UHGV virus genome: UHGV-0125821
Strand: one strand, 5' to 3'
DNA from: a virus
DNA length: 64,000 nucleotides
Shown: one piece after another, positions 1,829 to 16,605 of the stretch
How positions within the stretch are numbered: the stretch's first letter is position 1
Layout of the letters: every line of letters begins with the position of its first letter
Notes under the pieces: generated by a model
The model's database searches: none
Told to the model about the DNA's origin: nothing
What the model saw: the letters and a program-made list of their open reading frames with translations, nothing else
Program-made: the position numbers and the translations under genes

Positions 1829-2615
1829 TGCAGCGATTATTTTTGGTTCTTTATGTCTGACCGGATGCGACCGGGTAGAACCAGGCAATGTAGGGATCAA
1901 AGTAAATAAGCTGGGGGATGATAAAGGTGTCGGCGAAGTAGTTGGCGTTGGTCGCTACTGGACAGGCTGGAACACAGAAGTTTATATCTTCCCGACCTTT
2001 AAGCAAATGAAGACCTATGATGATCCGTTCAGCTTCCAAATGAGCGACGGGACAACAATTGGTTACCACATTGGTGTAGCTTACAAGGTTGATCCGGCAA
2101 AAGTCACAACTGTATTTCAGACCTACCGCAAAGGCGTGGATGACATTACCGACACTGACCTGCGCCAGAAGATCGCCGATGCACTCAACCGACTGGCCAG
2201 CAAAATGACCACCGATAAGTTTATCGACGGTGGTAAGTCTGAACTGCTGGATTCAGCACTTAAAGATATTCAGGAAGAGATGACCCCCATCGGCATTCAG
2301 GTCATGAGCCTCTCTTATGTCGGTAAACCGGAATATCCGCCAACCGTTATCGACAGCATTAATGCAAAAGTCACGGCGAACCAGAAAACTCTGCAACGCG
2401 AAGCAGAAGCCAACATGCTGCGCGCAGAAGCTGCCGGACAGGCCGATGCCATTCGCACAAAAGCCCAGGCTGAAGCTGATGCCATTCGTTTACGCGGTGA
2501 GGCTCTGCGCCAGAACCCCGGCGTTATGGAGTTGGAAGCGATCAACAAATGGAACGGAACGCTACCGCAGTATATGACCAGTAATACCGCTGTTCCGTTT
2601 GTTCCGGTGAAATAA
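1809..2615 (+). CDS. SPFH/band-7 (prohibitin-like) lipoprotein
   Basis: lipobox LTGC after N-terminal signal; SPFH-type core and Ala/Glu-rich coiled-coil tail. Confidence 0.8.
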   Translation: MKKTLISAAIIFGSLCLTGCDRVEPGNVGIKVNKLGDDKGVGEVVGVGRYWTGWNTEVYIFPTFKQMKTYDDPFSFQMSDGTTIGYHIGVAYKVDPAKVTTVFQTYRKGVDDITDTDLRQKIADALNRLASKMTTDKFIDGGKSELLDSALKDIQEEMTPIGIQVMSLSYVGKPEYPPTVIDSINAKVTANQKTLQREAEANMLRAEAAGQADAIRTKAQAEADAIRLRGEALRQNPGVMELEAINKWNGTLPQYMTSNTAVPFVPVK

Positions 2616-8914: not shown

Positions 8915-8946
8915 TAACTTTAAATAATTGGCATTATTTAAAGTTA
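8915..8946. other. rox-like recombination site
   Basis: TAACTTTAAATAATTGGCATTATTTAAAGTTA; reverse complement equals the rox sequence as I recall it. Confidence 0.85.
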
Positions 8947-8955
8947 GGCTATAAT
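8928..8955 (+). promoter_or_regulatory. sigma70-like promoter overlapping rox
   Basis: -35 TTGGCA (8928-8933), 16-bp spacer, -10 TATAAT (8950-8955), pointing toward dre. Confidence 0.45.
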
Positions 8956-9098
8956 CATGTGTAGATGAACAGTATTGACATCACTGAAAATACGTACCTC
9001 GAATCAAAGGCTTGTATTTTGAAAATTAACTTATAGCTACCCTGTCATTTTTATATTTTTCGCGTAGCATCATCTGTATATAGAGGTGAAATAGTTTC

Positions 9099-10127
9099 AT
9101 GAGTGAATTGATTATCTCTGGCAGTTCCGGTGGTTTTCTGCGCAACATTGGCAAAGAGTACCAGGAAGCCGCAGAAAACTTTATGCGGTTCATGAATGAC
9201 CAGGGGGCTTATGCGCCGAATACTCTGCGCGACCTCCGGTTGGTGTTTCATTCCTGGGCGCGCTGGTGTCACGCTCGCCAGCTTGCCTGGTTTCCGATCT
9301 CACCAGAAATGGCCCGCGAGTATTTTCTTCAGTTGCATGATGCCGATCTGGCTTCGACCACCATTGATAAGCACTACGCCATGCTTAACATGCTGCTTTC
9401 TCATTGTGGCCTTCCGCCACTTTCGGATGATAAAAGTGTTTCTCTGGCTATGCGGCGTATCCGGCGCGAAGCGGCAACGGAAAAAGGCGAACGAACAGGC
9501 CAGGCTATACCGCTGCGATGGGACGACCTGAAACTGCTCGACGTCCTGTTGTCCAGGTCAGAACGGCTGGTGGACCTGCGCAACCGGGCTTTTCTCTTTG
9601 TTGCATACAATACGCTGATGCGTATGTCGGAAATCTCGCGTATTCGTGTAGGAGATCTGGACCAAACAGGTGACACCGTCACGCTACATATTTCACACAC
9701 GAAGACAATAACGACCGCCGCCGGGCTTGATAAGGTGCTTTCCCGTCGCACTACTGCTGTGCTGAATGACTGGCTGGATGTTTCCGGGCTTCGTGAACAT
9801 CCTGACGCGGTGCTGTTCCCGCCGATACACCGTAGCAATAAGGCCAGGATTACGACAACGCCCCTTACTGCACCTGCAATGGAGAAAATATTCAGCGACG
9901 CCTGGGTGTTGCTGAATAAAAGGGATGCCGCGCCAAACAAAGGGAGATACCGGACGTGGACCGGGCATAGTGCTCGTGTCGGGGCCGCTATCGATATGGC
10001 TGAAAAGCAGGTGTCTATGGTGGAGATCATGCAGGAAGGAACCTGGAAGAAACCGGAAACACTTATGCGGTATCTGCGCCGTGGCGGTGTGTCTGTGGGG
10101 GCTAATAGCCGCTTGATGGATTCGTAG
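9099..10127 (+). CDS. dre: Cre-family tyrosine recombinase (Dre-like)
   Basis: blocks shared with Cre from memory: SWARWC, WFP, AYNTLMRMSEISRIRV, WTGHSARVGAAIDMA. Confidence 0.9.
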   Translation: MSELIISGSSGGFLRNIGKEYQEAAENFMRFMNDQGAYAPNTLRDLRLVFHSWARWCHARQLAWFPISPEMAREYFLQLHDADLASTTIDKHYAMLNMLLSHCGLPPLSDDKSVSLAMRRIRREAATEKGERTGQAIPLRWDDLKLLDVLLSRSERLVDLRNRAFLFVAYNTLMRMSEISRIRVGDLDQTGDTVTLHISHTKTITTAAGLDKVLSRRTTAVLNDWLDVSGLREHPDAVLFPPIHRSNKARITTTPLTAPAMEKIFSDAWVLLNKRDAAPNKGRYRTWTGHSARVGAAIDMAEKQVSMVEIMQEGTWKKPETLMRYLRRGGVSVGANSRLMDS

Positions 10128-12192: not shown

Positions 12193-12993
12193 GTGGAAAA
12201 TACTAAAGCAATTCAATACCGCTTGCGTAATGGCCTGCTGGTGGCTGTGAACGCCGACATGTCACTGCCGTTTGACACGATTGAACGTACTATCATGACG
12301 TATCTCGGCTTTAATGAAGAGCTGAATGAAGAGCATGGCGTAGCTATATGGAGTGATGCAGAAAGCGGCGTTCATCGTTACATCACCGCCAGGGGCAAAG
12401 ACTACTCTCTGGAAGAACTGTTTACCCTTGCACAGTCTTTCGAATGTGTAGCATTAGACATGTTTAATGATCCTGCTATAGCGCAACGACTTATACGCGA
12501 GCTTGGGCTATCCGTTACACCAATTATCTTTAAGAATGGCAGCCTGACTGGCACATGGCGCGTAGAACGCATCTCAAACTACCTTCCATATAACCGACAG
12601 TTAAATGGAGTAATCTCCGGCGTTAATCAGCCCGTAGCGTGTGAAAATGTAAACCTGGTTGCCGCTGTTTTGGCAACCGCATGTCGTGTTATCGGTTTGG
12701 CTAAACAGGCATTTATTCATTTCCCAAATGGTGCAGAAGGTAGCGCAGAGATTATCGCGTGTGATTTCGAATTTACCTGGATGCTACGCGAATATCTGGA
12801 CCAAACAGTATTCCGTGCCGAAGAACTGGATATGTATATCACGTCAACGATTCCAGACGATGTGCGAGCTGAAGCAATCGCTACAGCCAGGGCGAAATGC
12901 CGTGCGGCGATTGCAGAGCAGGCCAAAGAAGAACCGTCCGATGAAGCCGTGGCTGATGTTGAAGCAGAGGTAGCGGAGGATGCTGACGCCTAA
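12193..12993 (+). CDS. hypothetical acidic protein
   Basis: GTG start, 266 aa, acidic C-terminus. Confidence 0.6.
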   Translation: MENTKAIQYRLRNGLLVAVNADMSLPFDTIERTIMTYLGFNEELNEEHGVAIWSDAESGVHRYITARGKDYSLEELFTLAQSFECVALDMFNDPAIAQRLIRELGLSVTPIIFKNGSLTGTWRVERISNYLPYNRQLNGVISGVNQPVACENVNLVAAVLATACRVIGLAKQAFIHFPNGAEGSAEIIACDFEFTWMLREYLDQTVFRAEELDMYITSTIPDDVRAEAIATARAKCRAAIAEQAKEEPSDEAVADVEAEVAEDADA

Positions 12994-13047
12994 AAACATC
13001 ACCGAATTAGCTGGCTGACAGCAGAAAAAATCATTGAGTGATAGTAG

Positions 13048-13076
13048 GAAGCCCGCCTGGTTGAGCGGGCTTCTTT
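13048..13076. terminator. bidirectional intrinsic terminator between convergent genes
   Basis: GCCCGC ctggttga GCGGGC followed by TTCTTTTC. Confidence 0.5.
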
Positions 13077-13457
13077 TCAAATATTGGAACCAAATAATTC
13101 ACGTAGTTTTTCCGCTACTGAAGATACGGGGATTTCTCCAGTTGCGGCCCCCACCGCAAGTTCCACCAGCACGGGAGAATCATATACCTGTATACCGTTA
13201 CGGCGTAGAAATAGCAGCGCACTGTTTAGCGCGGTACGCTTATTGGCATCATTGAATATATGCCCTCTCGCCGTAGCCACCAGGTAGGTGGCGGAGACTT
13301 CGAAAAGGTCGGTGATCTCTTCGTAGGCAACTCTGGCCTGAACTCTCCCGATAATGGCCTCTGCCCTACCCGGATCTGACATTCCCGGCAGGCCGCCGTA
13401 GCGGCTTATATTCGCATCATGAAGCGCAATAAGTTCTTCCGGTGATATATGCCTCAT
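13077..13457 (-). CDS. doc: Doc toxin (Fic-fold kinase)
   Basis: near-identical over most of its length to P1 Doc as I recall it. Confidence 0.9.
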
Positions 13458-13678
13458 TATCGGTTAACCAGTTCCTTGTTGGTGGAGTCCAGGGTGTCAA
13501 ACAGGGATGCAAATTCAGCATCCAGCGCCGCTTTTTTGTAGGCTTCAAAAGTAGCCTTGCTGACAATTACTGCTGGCTCTCGGCCTCTGCGGGTGATTTC
13601 AACCTCTTCCCCGGCTTCAACATTGTTGAGCACTTCAGAAAGGTTGCCGCGCGCGGTACGGAAGTTAATGGATTGCAT
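13457..13678 (-). CDS. phd: Phd antitoxin
   Basis: [49 protein letters not shown]... matches P1 Phd from memory; start set at second Met. Confidence 0.9.
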
Positions 13679-13786
13679 AAACACCTCGTGTGCTCGTTAT
13701 GTGTACGCAATTATAGGTTTTAATGATGCTGAATACCACTTCTTGGTGCCTTAAATCCTCGAGATGCAGTCTTGCAATTGCTGGGA

Positions 13787-14209
13787 TTAAGCAGAATAAG
13801 TGGTTGGAATTCTGAGCAGTAATCCAATCTTGGCTATGTGTGCATATGGCAGCTCTCCGGTTTTACCATCATGTATCGAGGCTATCAGATTCAATTCTTG
13901 CGCCGCTTTACGAATTTCAGTTTCTGATGGAACAAGGCGAAAACCGGTGTGTAACATTTTGATATAGAAAGGTAATAGTTCGTACTTCACCCGTAACTGT
14001 GCTGCCGCATCTTTCAAATCATGGATGATTTCTTGTTTTAAGTCAGAGCGGGGATTCGATAGCTTTGCTTGGTTAGACAATAACAGATGCGATATTTCCC
14101 CCAACTGTTCCTTGAATGAAATGTAAGACTCAACCCCCTTGATGATGAGTCGACCTAGGACAAAAACGCTTACTCCAGTGACAACAGTGACAAAAGCAGA
14201 CGAACTCAT
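13787..14209 (-). CDS. membrane-anchored hypothetical protein (N-terminal TM helix)
   Basis: 140 aa, hydrophobic N-terminus; lies between humD and phd-doc. Confidence 0.55.
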   Translation of the reverse strand: MSSSAFVTVVTGVSVFVLGRLIIKGVESYISFKEQLGEISHLLLSNQAKLSNPRSDLKQEIIHDLKDAAAQLRVKYELLPFYIKMLHTGFRLVPSETEIRKAAQELNLIASIHDGKTGELPYAHIAKIGLLLRIPTTYSA

Positions 14210-14343
14210 TCGCGTACCTAAAAAGAGAATTATAACCTCATCTTATCTTCAAGTGAGTAACCGCGTCTAATGGGAGGAATCATTTAAATGGCCAGGGCGA
14301 TATAGAGCCAGTCATGCCTCTCTATGGTTTCTCTGAAAACAAA

Positions 14344-14733
14344 TCATATAGCAGGACTATCATCAAATTCACCGCCCCTGGCGTCATTGATAATGTGGGT
14401 GATCACACCAAAAACAGCATTACTACCCGTGTAACCATCGTCATCTACTGGTAACGCCTCTTTCTTCCCGGTGCTTAAATCCTCCAGGTGCTGGCGCGGA
14501 TACTTCCGGTATCTTTTTACGCGATATTCCCCCTCCATAGCGCATATAAGCAGTGAGCCATCAACCGGAGTAAGTGAGGAATCAACCACCAGCAAAGCAC
14601 CTTGCAATATTCCCTCACGGTGATGGCTGTCTGCCGCCCGCATGAAGTAGGTCGCTGAAGGATGTCTGATTAGTTGCTGATCAAGAGAAATACGGCTCTC
14701 TGCATAATCCGCCGCAGGAGAAGGGAAGCCCAT
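14344..14733 (-). CDS. humD: UmuD-prime-like protein
   Basis: GFPSPAADY...HPSATYF...FGV(I/V)xH core of UmuD C-terminal domain, no N-terminal cleavage arm. Confidence 0.8.
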   Translation of the reverse strand: MGFPSPAADYAESRISLDQQLIRHPSATYFMRAADSHHREGILQGALLVVDSSLTPVDGSLLICAMEGEYRVKRYRKYPRQHLEDLSTGKKEALPVDDDGYTGSNAVFGVITHIINDARGGEFDDSPAI

Positions 14734-14751
14734 AGCGTTTTACCTCAATGA

Positions 14752-14771
14752 TACTGTTTATTCATACAGTA
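14752..14771. promoter_or_regulatory. LexA box
   Basis: TACTGTTTATTCATACAGTA (CTGT-N8-ACAG) about 20 bp upstream of humD start. Confidence 0.6.
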
Positions 14772-14832
14772 TACATTGAAAAGGCATAGTTTGTGAAAGC
14801 GGGGTTTGCAGGCGCGCCACGCTGGGGGCTAA

Positions 14833-15225
14833 TCACATTGGTGGCGTGAACTTGCCATTCATATATTGCAAAATGCTTGACTCAATTTTTTCATTAAAAT
14901 CAGAATGATGCTCCTCAAGGACAAAGCGCGCCTTATTGTTGCGCACAATAACCTCCGCCAACGGACTAACCAGAGATGTGGAGTTAGAGATTTTCTCGGC
15001 GCGCTCTACATCGCTTTTAAACGTTACGATGAAGTGCTGGTGGCCTGGTGACCGGCGACACAACATGCGTCGCACTTCCACGGTATCTTCACGGCCTTGA
15101 GTATGTACAGGAAAGCTATCGACCACCGCTGTATTGGTGCGGATTGTCTGCATAGAACGCGTGTTGTCGTGATAGTTAAGCATGTTTAATGTCTTCCCCA
15201 TCTTGCCGTTATTTTCTTGGTGCAT
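14833..15225 (-). CDS. hypothetical protein
   Basis: ORF between humD and hot. Confidence 0.55.
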
Positions 15226-15460
15226 CCTCGTTCTGATACACCGGATGGCTCCCTTTTGGCAACTGGAGGCTTAACTGCCGGTAGTGCCGTAACCGTTCCA
15301 TGAAATAGGTGCGCAGGTTCTCTGGTTGCTCGCGGGCTACCTGTTCAGCCATGACAGGTATGTTCAATCGCTCTTTGTACGCCACACCGCTGGCAGCCAG
15401 ATCAACGTTAACCTTATCCCGTTCTTCCTGACTTTTAGCTGCAATATTCCAGTCGCTCAT
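15209..15460 (-). CDS. hot: DNA polymerase III theta-subunit homolog
   Basis: [36 protein letters not shown] closely parallels HolE. Confidence 0.8.
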
Positions 15461-15462
15461 AT

Positions 15463-15735
15463 TTAAGGCTCACATTTCCAGATGGTATTCTGAACACCCG
15501 AACCGGGCGCAAGATTAGGGTTAGCGTTCGCGCTATGCTGATATACTGCTTTAGACTTCCCATATTGCTGACAGGCTTTATCTGCGGTTTTTTGCAGGCT
15601 ATCCAGGCCATACCAACCATCTGACTGTATGCTTACCTTTTCACCGTCGTTGTATTGCACCATTGCACACCCAGATATAGCCAGTATCGCGCCGACAATA
15701 ACGCTTTTCCATAAAACTCTATGCAACATATACAA
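15463..15735 (-). CDS. small lipoprotein
   Basis: signal peptide with lipobox ISGC. Confidence 0.55.
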
Positions 15736-15774
15736 AAATCCCCTCTGTGAATTGAGGGGATTTTAGCATGGTGA

Positions 15775-16605
15775 TCAGATATCGGCCTTATTCGGAATTT
15801 TATCAGCCACCAGCGGCAATAAAGCCTTCGCCATTTCATGAACCAACATGGCATCAATGACGCCTAGCGTATGGCCCGGCTTAATCTTTAATGCGGCCTC
15901 AAGATAGCCTCTTTCCAGAGTGGTTTTTACGCTTTTCTTGGGCGATTGTTGGGAACTATCCGGAAAATCCGGATGGTTGCCAGCCAGTCTACGCAAAACG
16001 GCCTTAACAGCCTCAATACGGTCATCATCGCAATTTTCCAGCGTATCTATGCGGTCGAGCATGATGATTGCGTTATCAATATCAGGATTGCCGGTCCACT
16101 CATTACCGCGATTGGATTCGGCAGCATGGTTGCCGCGTACTGGTTGATTCTCGGCTTTACCCTGTCTGTCGTCGCTGCATGAATGCCCTTCCAGCCAGGC
16201 CAATGCTTGTCGCATGAAATACGCAATATGTTTGCCGTGGTAATCGTCTTCATCGATGTGAAAAGCGATACTGCGGATGTATTCAATTGCGTTTTCAATG
16301 GCCTCCGGCGTTATCGGCGCTGGCGGTGCGGTATAAAACTTCGTCCCCAACGGCAACAACTTCATCGCTTTTTCTCCCTTAATGATGCGATAAGTTGATT
16401 TCCCGCCAAGGTCTACCGTCCCATCCATAACAAGGCCATGTTGCTTCTCTGAAACTTCACCAATAGGCTCTGCTTCCAGCGATGTCAGCGCAATCCGCGC
16501 CAGTTCTTCCGCTTCTTCTGCTGGCAGTACAACGTTGCTACCAGGTCCGTATGTTTCGCGCCACTGCTTGATTGTCAGTAGTCGCTCTTTGGTTATAGTG
16601 GTCAT
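15775..16605 (-). CDS. hypothetical protein
   Basis: 276-aa ORF. Confidence 0.6.
   Translation of the reverse strand: MTTITKERLLTIKQWRETYGPGSNVVLPAEEAEELARIALTSLEAEPIGEVSEKQHGLVMDGTVDLGGKSTYRIIKGEKAMKLLPLGTKFYTAPPAPITPEAIENAIEYIRSIAFHIDEDDYHGKHIAYFMRQALAWLEGHSCSDDRQGKAENQPVRGNHAAESNRGNEWTGNPDIDNAIIMLDRIDTLENCDDDRIEAVKAVLRRLAGNHPDFPDSSQQSPKKSVKTTLERGYLEAALKIKPGHTLGVIDAMLVHEMAKALLPLVADKIPNKADI

What the first reader, a model, noticed from the sequence alone, without database searches (positions are those of the whole stretch)
14744..14775. Near-consensus LexA box in front of humD
TACTGTTTATTCATACAGTA (CTGT-N8-ACAG with flanking TA/TA) lies about 20 bp upstream of the UmuD-prime-like gene, placing humD and probably the downstream hot and phd-doc genes under host SOS control.
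Basis: seen in the sequence. Interest (0 to 1): 0.4.

Follow-up and report, generated by a model that had tools for sequence, protein, structure and literature searches.

The report
LexA operator of phage humD gene
This is the host SOS-repressor (LexA) binding site in front of the error-prone-repair gene humD of a P1/D6-like phage-plasmid; the sequence is real and conserved, but the same site is already annotated in phages P1 and P7, so it is ordinary.

Summary
The box is real. TACTGTTTATTCATACAGTA lies at 14752..14771, 18 nt before the ATG (14733) of a minus-strand 129-aa UmuD'-type gene, humD. It is the only TACTGT-N8-ACAGTA in the 64 kb (0 of 100 shuffles). It overlaps the -10 hexamer and the predicted start site of a good promoter-like site (TTCACA-18-TATACT).

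The window is a D6/P1-like phage-plasmid, 99.9% identical to E. coli plasmid ptetA over the 1.4 kb compared. The orthologous site, with two spacer changes, is annotated as a LexA binding site in the P1 and P7 GenBank records.

All 80 close relatives from IMG/VR keep a perfect CTGT-N8-ACAG. So do 16 of 17 humD homologues from annotated phage and plasmid records, down to 42% protein identity. Spacer and flanks vary; the eight core bases never do.

Best explanation: a classic SOS operator where LexA occludes the humD promoter. This is the only SOS checkpoint for a pre-truncated UmuD'.

orf140 and phd-doc each carry promoter-like sequences of their own, and no terminator separates them from humD, so SOS read-through is possible but unshown.

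LexA binding and damage induction were not testable here. Already known; low interest.

The parts
14752..14771 (.). LexA (SOS) box TACTGTTTATTCATACAGTA; on the humD strand it reads TACTGTATGAATAAACAGTA
   Evidence: Unique match in the window, 0/100 shuffles. Orthologous to the annotated LexA sites of P1 and P7. Core invariant in 80/80 IMG/VR loci and in 28 haplotypes.
14792..14797 (-). Predicted -35 hexamer TTCACA of the humD promoter
   Evidence: Consensus scan, 10 of 12 matches with an 18-nt spacer. This allele is shared by 35 of 80 related loci. Prediction only.
14768..14773 (-). Predicted -10 hexamer TATACT, overlapping the box by 4 nt; the predicted start site near 14761 lies inside the box
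   Evidence: TATACT is present in 27 of 28 haplotypes. Prediction only.
14344..14733 (-). humD: 129-aa UmuD'-type protein that starts at the residue equivalent to UmuD Gly25
   Evidence: NCBIfam HumD equivalog NF051876, 211.7 bits against a cutoff of 120. Pfam Peptidase_S24. Residue 2 aligns with residue 1 of UmuD' (1umu) and residue 25 of UmuD (8gmt_B).
14742..14746 (-). Shine-Dalgarno GAGGT, 8 nt before the humD ATG
   Evidence: Read from the sequence. One G of this element is invariant in the 13-phage alignment.
13787..14209 (-). orf140 (phrog_7512, unknown function, hydrophobic N-terminus), directly downstream of humD; possibly co-transcribed but probably has its own promoter
   Evidence: No terminator between it and humD. 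Relatives at 73-74% identity in other contexts keep about 45 nt of upstream sequence but have no humD or box.
13077..13678 (-). phd-doc addiction operon with its own Pphd -10 and operator sequence; not shown to depend on the box
   Evidence: Pfam PhdYeFM and Fic/DOC. Compared with the annotated P1 Pphd.
14833..15460 (-). hot (15460..15209, DNA pol III theta homologue) and orf130 (15225..14833, phrog_2594). Both lie upstream of the box, so they are not regulated by it; their transcripts may read into humD.
   Evidence: No terminator-like structure at 14774..14840.

Best explanation
The 20-bp palindrome is the operator at which the host LexA dimer represses the humD promoter of a D6/P1-like phage-plasmid.

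The box covers the last four bases of the -10 hexamer (TATACT) and the predicted transcription start. Bound LexA would therefore keep RNA polymerase off the promoter in undamaged lysogens. After DNA damage, RecA-stimulated self-cleavage of LexA would free the promoter and HumD would be made.

HumD begins at the residue that corresponds to the first residue of processed UmuD'. It therefore needs no RecA-dependent cleavage, and the LexA operator is the only SOS checkpoint on it. It would then pair with host UmuC for translesion synthesis.

Shown here: the sequence, its uniqueness, its position relative to a promoter-like site and to humD, its orthology to annotated LexA sites, and selective conservation of the core. 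Inferred: LexA binding, promoter use, induction, and the HumD-UmuC step. The last rests on published P1 work that I could not re-read here.
For: - Unique TACTGT-N8-ACAGTA in the window, 0/100 shuffles.
- The box overlaps the -10 of a 10-of-12 promoter-like site 38-65 nt before the humD ATG.
- The gene is a HumD equivalog, and its residue 2 aligns with UmuD Gly25.
- P1 (87545..87564, 'LexA binding site in the regulatory region of lxr and humD') and P7 ('LexA; regulation of humD expression') annotate the orthologous 20-mer, which differs at two spacer positions.
- phiKO2 annotates a lexA site before its umuD-like gp23.
- 16 of 17 humD homologues from annotated phage and plasmid records (down to 42% protein identity) have a perfect CTGT-N8-ACAG upstream; the Aeromonas phage has 7 of 8. 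Most lie 15-40 nt before the start codon.
- In a 13-phage alignment, the only invariant upstream columns are TACTGT, T, ACAG and one Shine-Dalgarno G.
- 80 of 80 IMG/VR relatives keep the perfect core, with 12 box variants.
- Among 28 haplotypes, 0 of 8 core positions vary against 36 of 57 other positions. That is roughly P = 3e-4 if positions were independent.
- The genes upstream and downstream of box+humD are mosaic while the box stays constant.
- The literature states that humD is a LexA-regulated SOS gene (PMC9603915).
Against: - No binding or expression data exist for this element, and I could not read the primary P1 papers.
- The promoter is only a consensus match. The scan found fewer promoter-like sites in the region than in shuffles (2 against 4.2), so it is not significant on its own.
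- The P1 record places its predicted PhumD about 480 nt further upstream, inside lxr. That would make LexA a roadblock rather than a promoter occluder.
- No terminator separates hot-orf130 from humD, so LexA-independent read-through into humD is possible.
- Many of the 80 loci are close relatives, so the conservation counts are not independent events.
Confidence: 0.9

Rival explanations
1. LexA binds the box but acts as a roadblock or attenuator on transcripts that start further upstream (from the hot/orf130 unit, or a promoter like the one the P1 record predicts about 480 nt upstream), rather than by occluding a promoter that overlaps the box.
For: - The P1 annotation puts the predicted PhumD inside lxr, far upstream of the LexA site.
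- No terminator-like structure lies between orf130 and the box.
- orf90-hot-orf130 are tightly packed and point towards humD.
Against: - A 10-of-12 promoter-like site overlaps the box, and its -10 is kept in 27 of 28 haplotypes.
- In distant phages (N15, HK639, Huey, pAEv1818) the box follows a tail-fibre or tail-spike gene; in BTP1 and vB_Ecl_MII_003 it follows a divergent glucosyl-transfer (gtr-type) gene. In the cases read (N15, HK639, BTP1) a -35-like hexamer sits 16-18 nt before a -10 that overlaps the left arm of the box.
- The region upstream of the box is mosaic, so a distant promoter would not be conserved.
Confidence: 0.07
2. The box is a bidirectional operator that also controls a divergent gene, as annotated for lxr in P1 and as in phiKO2, where the site lies between a dinI-like and a umuD-like gene.
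For: - The P1 record calls it the site 'in the regulatory region of lxr and humD'.
- phiKO2 has divergent dinI-like gp22 and umuD-like gp23 around one lexA site.
- 33 of 80 related loci carry lxr next to the box.
Against: - In this window there is no lxr.
- The next gene beyond the box is orf130, on the same strand as humD.
- The only plus-strand ORFs there are 48-54 aa, antisense to orf130.
- The nearest plus-strand promoter-like site (14877..14906) is more than 100 nt from the box.
Confidence: 0.02
3. The palindrome is a chance match, or serves something other than LexA: an RNA hairpin or terminator for the hot-orf130 transcript, or a site for a phage-encoded regulator.
For: - The bare core motif is expected 0.64 times per window by chance.
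- A 6-bp stem with an 8-nt loop could form in RNA.
Against: - The full 12-base motif appears in 0 of 100 shuffles.
- There is no T-run after the palindrome and no terminator call.
- There is no Rfam match.
- Conservation falls on the LexA-contact bases CTGT/ACAG, while the spacer changes freely and without compensation. That fits a protein site, not a hairpin.
- The same motif precedes humD homologues in unrelated phages of several host genera.
Confidence: 0.01

Closest known systems
LexA binding site upstream of humD in phage P1 (AF234172 87545..87564) and P7 (AF503408 94404..94423)
   Same: Orthologous position, 18-19 nt before the humD ATG. Identical arms (TACTGT / ACAGTA) and the same downstream Shine-Dalgarno and gene. 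HumD is 94-95% identical in protein.
   Different: - Two spacer substitutions (humD strand: ATGAATAA here, ATAAATGA in P1).
- A different -35 region: TTCACA with an 18-nt spacer here, TTGCAC with a 19-nt spacer in P1. The match to consensus is better here.
- P1 c1.100 has -10 TGTACT.
- P1 has a divergent lxr upstream and phd directly downstream. Here orf130 (same strand) is upstream and orf140 is inserted downstream.
E. coli umuDC operator (SOS box overlapping the umuDC promoter)
   Same: A near-consensus CTGT-N8-ACAG box with TA flanks, close to the start of a umuD-type gene and overlapping the promoter. It gives tight repression of a mutagenesis factor (established knowledge; box sequence recalled from memory).
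   Different: The chromosomal operon encodes full-length UmuD, which needs RecA-mediated cleavage, together with UmuC. Here the gene encodes a ready-made UmuD' equivalent with no adjacent umuC. Transcription is therefore the only SOS checkpoint.
LexA sites before UmuD'-like genes of other temperate phages (phiKO2 gp23, N15 gp26, HK639, BTP1, HK140 and others)
   Same: Each has a CTGT-N8-ACAG box upstream of a gene whose product starts MGFPSPA... The phiKO2 site is annotated as lexA.
   Different: Flanks and genomic context are unrelated (after a tail-fibre gene, or next to dinI or an integrase gene). In phiKO2 and HK140 the box lies beside a divergent dinI-like gene. N15 and phiKO2 have an annotated terminator straight after the gene, whereas none is seen here.

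Membership tests
Gammaproteobacterial LexA (SOS) box | 16-bp core CTGT-N8-ACAG, an imperfect palindrome; the full consensus is TACTGTATATATATACAGTA | tested here: met
   8 of 8 core bases, both TA flanks, and 17 of 20 matches to the consensus.
Gammaproteobacterial LexA (SOS) box | A+T-rich spacer and a low heterology index (functional sites are generally below about 12-15) | tested here: met
   The spacer is 7/8 A+T. My own HI-type score is 2.5-3.2, against 0.4-10 for the recalled E. coli operators and 11.0 for the next best site in the window. The matrix was rebuilt from memory, so the values are approximate.
Gammaproteobacterial LexA (SOS) box | Located at or overlapping the promoter of the regulated gene | tested here: met
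   The box overlaps the predicted -10 (14773..14768) and the predicted start site, and ends 18 nt before the ATG. The promoter is a prediction only.
Gammaproteobacterial LexA (SOS) box | Conserved at the orthologous position, with selection on the contact bases | tested here: met
   Perfect core in 80 of 80 close loci and in 16 of 17 annotated phage and plasmid records. 0 of 8 core positions vary against 36 of 57 others.
Gammaproteobacterial LexA (SOS) box | Binds purified LexA (EMSA or footprint) | not testable with these tools
The primary P1 papers (PMC94175, PMC523184) are not in the library.
Gammaproteobacterial LexA (SOS) box | The downstream gene is induced by DNA damage in a recA+ lexA+ dependent manner | not testable with these tools
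   Only a secondary statement is available, that humD is a LexA-regulated SOS gene (PMC9603915).
HumD (phage UmuD'-type protein) | S24-fold UmuD homologue scoring above the NCBIfam HumD equivalog cutoff | tested here: met
   NF051876, 211.7 bits against a cutoff of 120, covering 1-128 of 129 residues. Pfam PF00717.
HumD (phage UmuD'-type protein) | Lacks the N-terminal arm and the Cys24-Gly25 cleavage site; starts at the UmuD' N-terminus | tested here: met
   Residue 2 (G) aligns with residue 1 of UmuD' (1umu) and residue 25 of full-length UmuD (8gmt_B).
HumD (phage UmuD'-type protein) | No cognate umuC gene adjacent | tested here: met
   The neighbours are orf130/hot and orf140/phd/doc.
HumD (phage UmuD'-type protein) | Complements UmuD' in SOS mutagenesis | not testable with these tools
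   Reported for P1 HumD by McLenigan et al. 1999 (title cited). The text is not available here.

The most novel reading that the evidence does not exclude
In this D6-type arrangement no terminator separates humD from orf140 (a membrane-anchored protein of unknown function) or from phd-doc. LexA release might therefore drive a long SOS-induced transcript through orf140 and the addiction module, tying a toxin-antitoxin pair and an unknown membrane protein to host DNA damage. The window-type promoter allele (TTCACA-18-TATACT) is closer to consensus than the P1 allele, so it could also make this lineage a stronger SOS mutator than P1.
Probability: 0.15. Interest if true: 0.35.

Novelty: already known. 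Interest (0 to 1): 0.1.

Why it matters
It confirms that this phage-plasmid, like P1 and P7, puts a ready-made UmuD' under host SOS control. P1/D6-like plasmids are widespread in E. coli and Salmonella and often carry resistance genes. A lysogen can therefore gain mutagenic translesion capacity as soon as LexA is cleaved.

The comparative result is a clean phylogenetic footprint: the box core is invariant across more than 90 loci and several host genera, while everything around it is reshuffled. It only re-derives an annotated feature and opens no new question.

Tried and rejected
- I tried to read the primary sources: McLenigan 1999 (PMC94175), Lobocka 2004 (PMC523184), Chikova and Schaaper 2007 (PMC2072811), and Gilcrease and Casjens 2018 (PMC5800970). 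None is held. Experimental support for P1 is therefore cited only through GenBank annotation and secondary papers.
- Ronayne 2016 measured humD, phd and hot by rt-qPCR, but only after thermal induction and without numbers in the text. That is not informative for SOS control.
- I looked for terminators between orf130/humD, humD/orf140 and orf140/phd. The scan found none, and folding energies were no better than shuffles (z = +0.6 to +1.4).
- I looked for a divergent gene that might share the box, as lxr does in P1. None is present.
- An Rfam scan of 12500..16500 gave only two sub-threshold leader matches elsewhere.
- Pfam, NCBIfam and PADLOC give nothing for orf130, orf140 or orf90; PHROGs gives only families of unknown function.
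- I searched the window for further LexA boxes. Nothing is convincing; the best other site scores 11.0, at 8955..8974.
- I rejected the hairpin/terminator reading and the chance reading (see rivals).

Full report
**Observation**

It has the full CTGT-N8-ACAG core, TA on both outer sides and a 7/8 A+T spacer. It matches the textbook LexA consensus TACTGTATATATATACAGTA at 17 of 20 positions.

- The 12-base pattern TACTGT-N8-ACAGTA occurs once in the 64 kb and in none of 100 dinucleotide-preserving shuffles.
- The bare 8-base core would be expected 0.64 times per window by chance. The core alone proves nothing; the flanks, the position and the conservation carry the case.
- I built a heterology-index-type score from 23 E. 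coli operators recalled from memory, so it is approximate. The box scores 2.5-3.2, in the range of the tightest operators. The next best site in the whole window scores 11.0.

**Context**

The window is a D6/P1-like phage-plasmid.

- The 1.4 kb around the box is 99.9% identical to E. coli plasmid ptetA (NZ_CP047013).
- The left part, up to 14808, is 97% identical to phage D6.

On the minus strand the gene order is as follows:

| Feature | Coordinates | Note |
|---|---|---|
| orf90 | 15735..15463 | |
| hot | 15460..15209 | Pfam DNA_pol3_theta, E = 1e-33 |
| orf130 | 15225..14833 | phrog_2594, unknown function |
| LexA box | 14771..14752 | |
| humD | 14733..14344 | |
| orf140 | 14209..13787 | phrog_7512, unknown function |
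| phd | 13678..13457 | |
| doc | 13457..13077 | |

The humD product (129 aa) scores 211.7 bits on the NCBIfam HumD equivalog, against a cutoff of 120. Its residue 2 aligns with residue 1 of UmuD' (1umu) and with Gly25 of full-length UmuD (8gmt_B). It is therefore a ready-made UmuD' with no cleavable arm and no adjacent umuC.

**Anatomy of the control region**

Reading the humD strand, the layout is:

- -35 TTCACA (14797..14792)
- an 18-nt spacer
- -10 TATACT (14773..14768)
- the box (14771..14752)
- Shine-Dalgarno GAGGT
- ATG (14733)

The promoter-like site matches 10 of 12 consensus positions. The box covers the last four bases of the -10 and the predicted start site near 14761. This is the arrangement typical of tightly repressed SOS genes.

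The promoter is only a consensus match. The scan found fewer such sites in the region than in shuffles, so it is not significant on its own.

**Comparison with relatives**

The P1 record annotates TACTGTTCATTTATACAGTA (87545..87564) as 'LexA binding site in the regulatory region of lxr and humD'. The P7 record annotates the same 20-mer as 'LexA; regulation of humD expression'. That site is orthologous to the one here and differs at two spacer positions. phiKO2 likewise annotates a lexA site before its umuD-like gp23.

I fetched 16 further loci with humD homologues, from 99% down to 42% protein identity. The hosts are Escherichia, Salmonella, Klebsiella, Enterobacter, Hafnia and Aeromonas.

- Counting the window, 16 of 17 have a perfect CTGT-N8-ACAG upstream. 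The Aeromonas phage has 7 of 8.
- Fourteen of the 17 boxes end 15-20 nt before the start codon.
- In HK140 the box precedes a small upstream ORF.
- In phiKO2 and HK140 the box lies next to a divergent dinI-like gene.

In a 13-phage alignment of -130..+30, the only invariant upstream columns are TACTGT, one T, ACAG and one Shine-Dalgarno G. Everything else upstream has diverged beyond recognition.

A scan of IMG/VR gave 80 close relatives.

- All 80 keep the perfect core, with 12 different 20-mers.
- Over 28 distinct haplotypes of a 65-nt stretch, 0 of 8 core positions vary.
- By comparison, 5 of 8 spacer positions, 3 of 4 outer flank positions and 28 of 45 positions outside the box vary.
- That is roughly P = 3e-4 if positions were independent, which they are not entirely.

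The genes around box+humD are mosaic, while the box stays constant:

- Upstream: hot alone, lxr, hot+lxr, hot+orf130, or neither.
- Downstream: phd-doc directly, or orf140 and then phd-doc.

**Mechanism**

The best explanation is a classic LexA operator that occludes the humD promoter. LexA self-cleavage after DNA damage frees the promoter.

HumD is already in the UmuD' form. Transcription is therefore the only SOS checkpoint before it can join host UmuC.

LexA binding, promoter use and induction are inferred, not shown. I could not open the primary P1 papers. A secondary paper states that humD is a LexA-regulated SOS gene (PMC9603915).

hot is upstream of the box in the direction of transcription, here and in P1. 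It cannot be repressed from this operator.

For phd-doc the evidence points both ways:

- The window keeps the P1 Pphd -10 (TATAAT) and the adjacent operator-like sequence.
- orf140, which separates humD from phd in D6-type elements only, appears to carry its own upstream region. Its 73-74% relatives sit in other contexts without humD or a box, yet keep about 45 nt of upstream sequence, TTAGAC-N19-TAAGAT.
- On the other hand, no intrinsic terminator was found between orf130 and humD, humD and orf140, or orf140 and phd.
- Read-through in either direction of the argument therefore stays open. Transcripts from hot/orf130 may enter humD, and SOS-induced transcripts may run on into orf140 and phd-doc.

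**Rivals**

- Roadblock. LexA might act on transcripts from a distant promoter, as the P1 record's predicted PhumD about 480 nt upstream would imply. This is less likely. A good promoter-like site overlaps the box. The region upstream of the box is not conserved. Distant phages have the box straight after an unrelated gene.
- Shared divergent operator. This fits P1 and phiKO2 but not this window, which has no divergent gene.
- Chance, an RNA hairpin, or another regulator. These are excluded by the shuffles, the absence of a T-run or Rfam match, and conservation that falls on the LexA contact bases while the spacer changes without compensation.

**Verdict**

The core interpretation, LexA control of humD, is well supported and already annotated for P1 and P7. 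The extension to hot is wrong, and the extension to phd-doc is unsupported. Novelty: already known. Interest: low.

Noticed in passing
window 8915..8946 (-) and ORF 9099..10127 (+): An exact rox site (TAACTTTAAATAATGCCAATTATTTAAAGTTA) lies next to a 342-aa tyrosine recombinase gene. This is the Dre/rox system of phage D6, used as a genome-engineering tool.
   Followed up: partly
window 8955..8974: A weak LexA-like half site, TCATGTGTAGATGAACAGTA, lies just beside rox, between the recombinase gene and the 345-aa minus-strand ORF. It is the second-best score in the window (11.0 on my approximate scale), with only the ACAG arm intact. Probably chance.
   Followed up: no
window 13787..14209 (-); loci L104, L106: orf140 (phrog_7512, hydrophobic N-terminus, no Pfam, NCBIfam or PADLOC match) is inserted between humD and phd only in D6-type elements. 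Relatives at 73-74% identity sit elsewhere but keep about 45 nt of upstream sequence (TTAGAC-N19-TAAGAT). It looks like a moron with its own promoter.
   Followed up: partly
L003 (phage D6) 4573..4719: The D6 record annotates a 48-aa 'theta subunit-like' ORF (D6_107) that runs across the humD promoter and LexA box. It looks like a remnant of hot left by a deletion; the window has an intact hot plus orf130 instead.
   Followed up: partly
window 14774..14800 versus L001 (P1) 2561..2600: There are two promoter alleles upstream of the box among relatives. The window type is TTCACA-18-TATACT (35 of 80 loci) and the P1 type is TTGCAC-19-TATACT. P1 c1.100 alone among the 28 haplotypes has TGTACT as its -10, which may relate to weak HumD expression in P1.
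   Followed up: partly
window 15463..15735 (-): orf90 (phrog_7757, unknown function) has a lipoprotein-like signal (...AILAISGC...). It abuts hot, and a terminator-like hairpin (15764..15735) lies just upstream of it.
   Followed up: no
window 13678 versus 13684: The mechanical ORF list starts phd at GTG 13684 (MFMQSINF...). The P1-annotated start corresponds to ATG 13678 (MQSINF...), giving the 73-aa Phd.
   Followed up: yes
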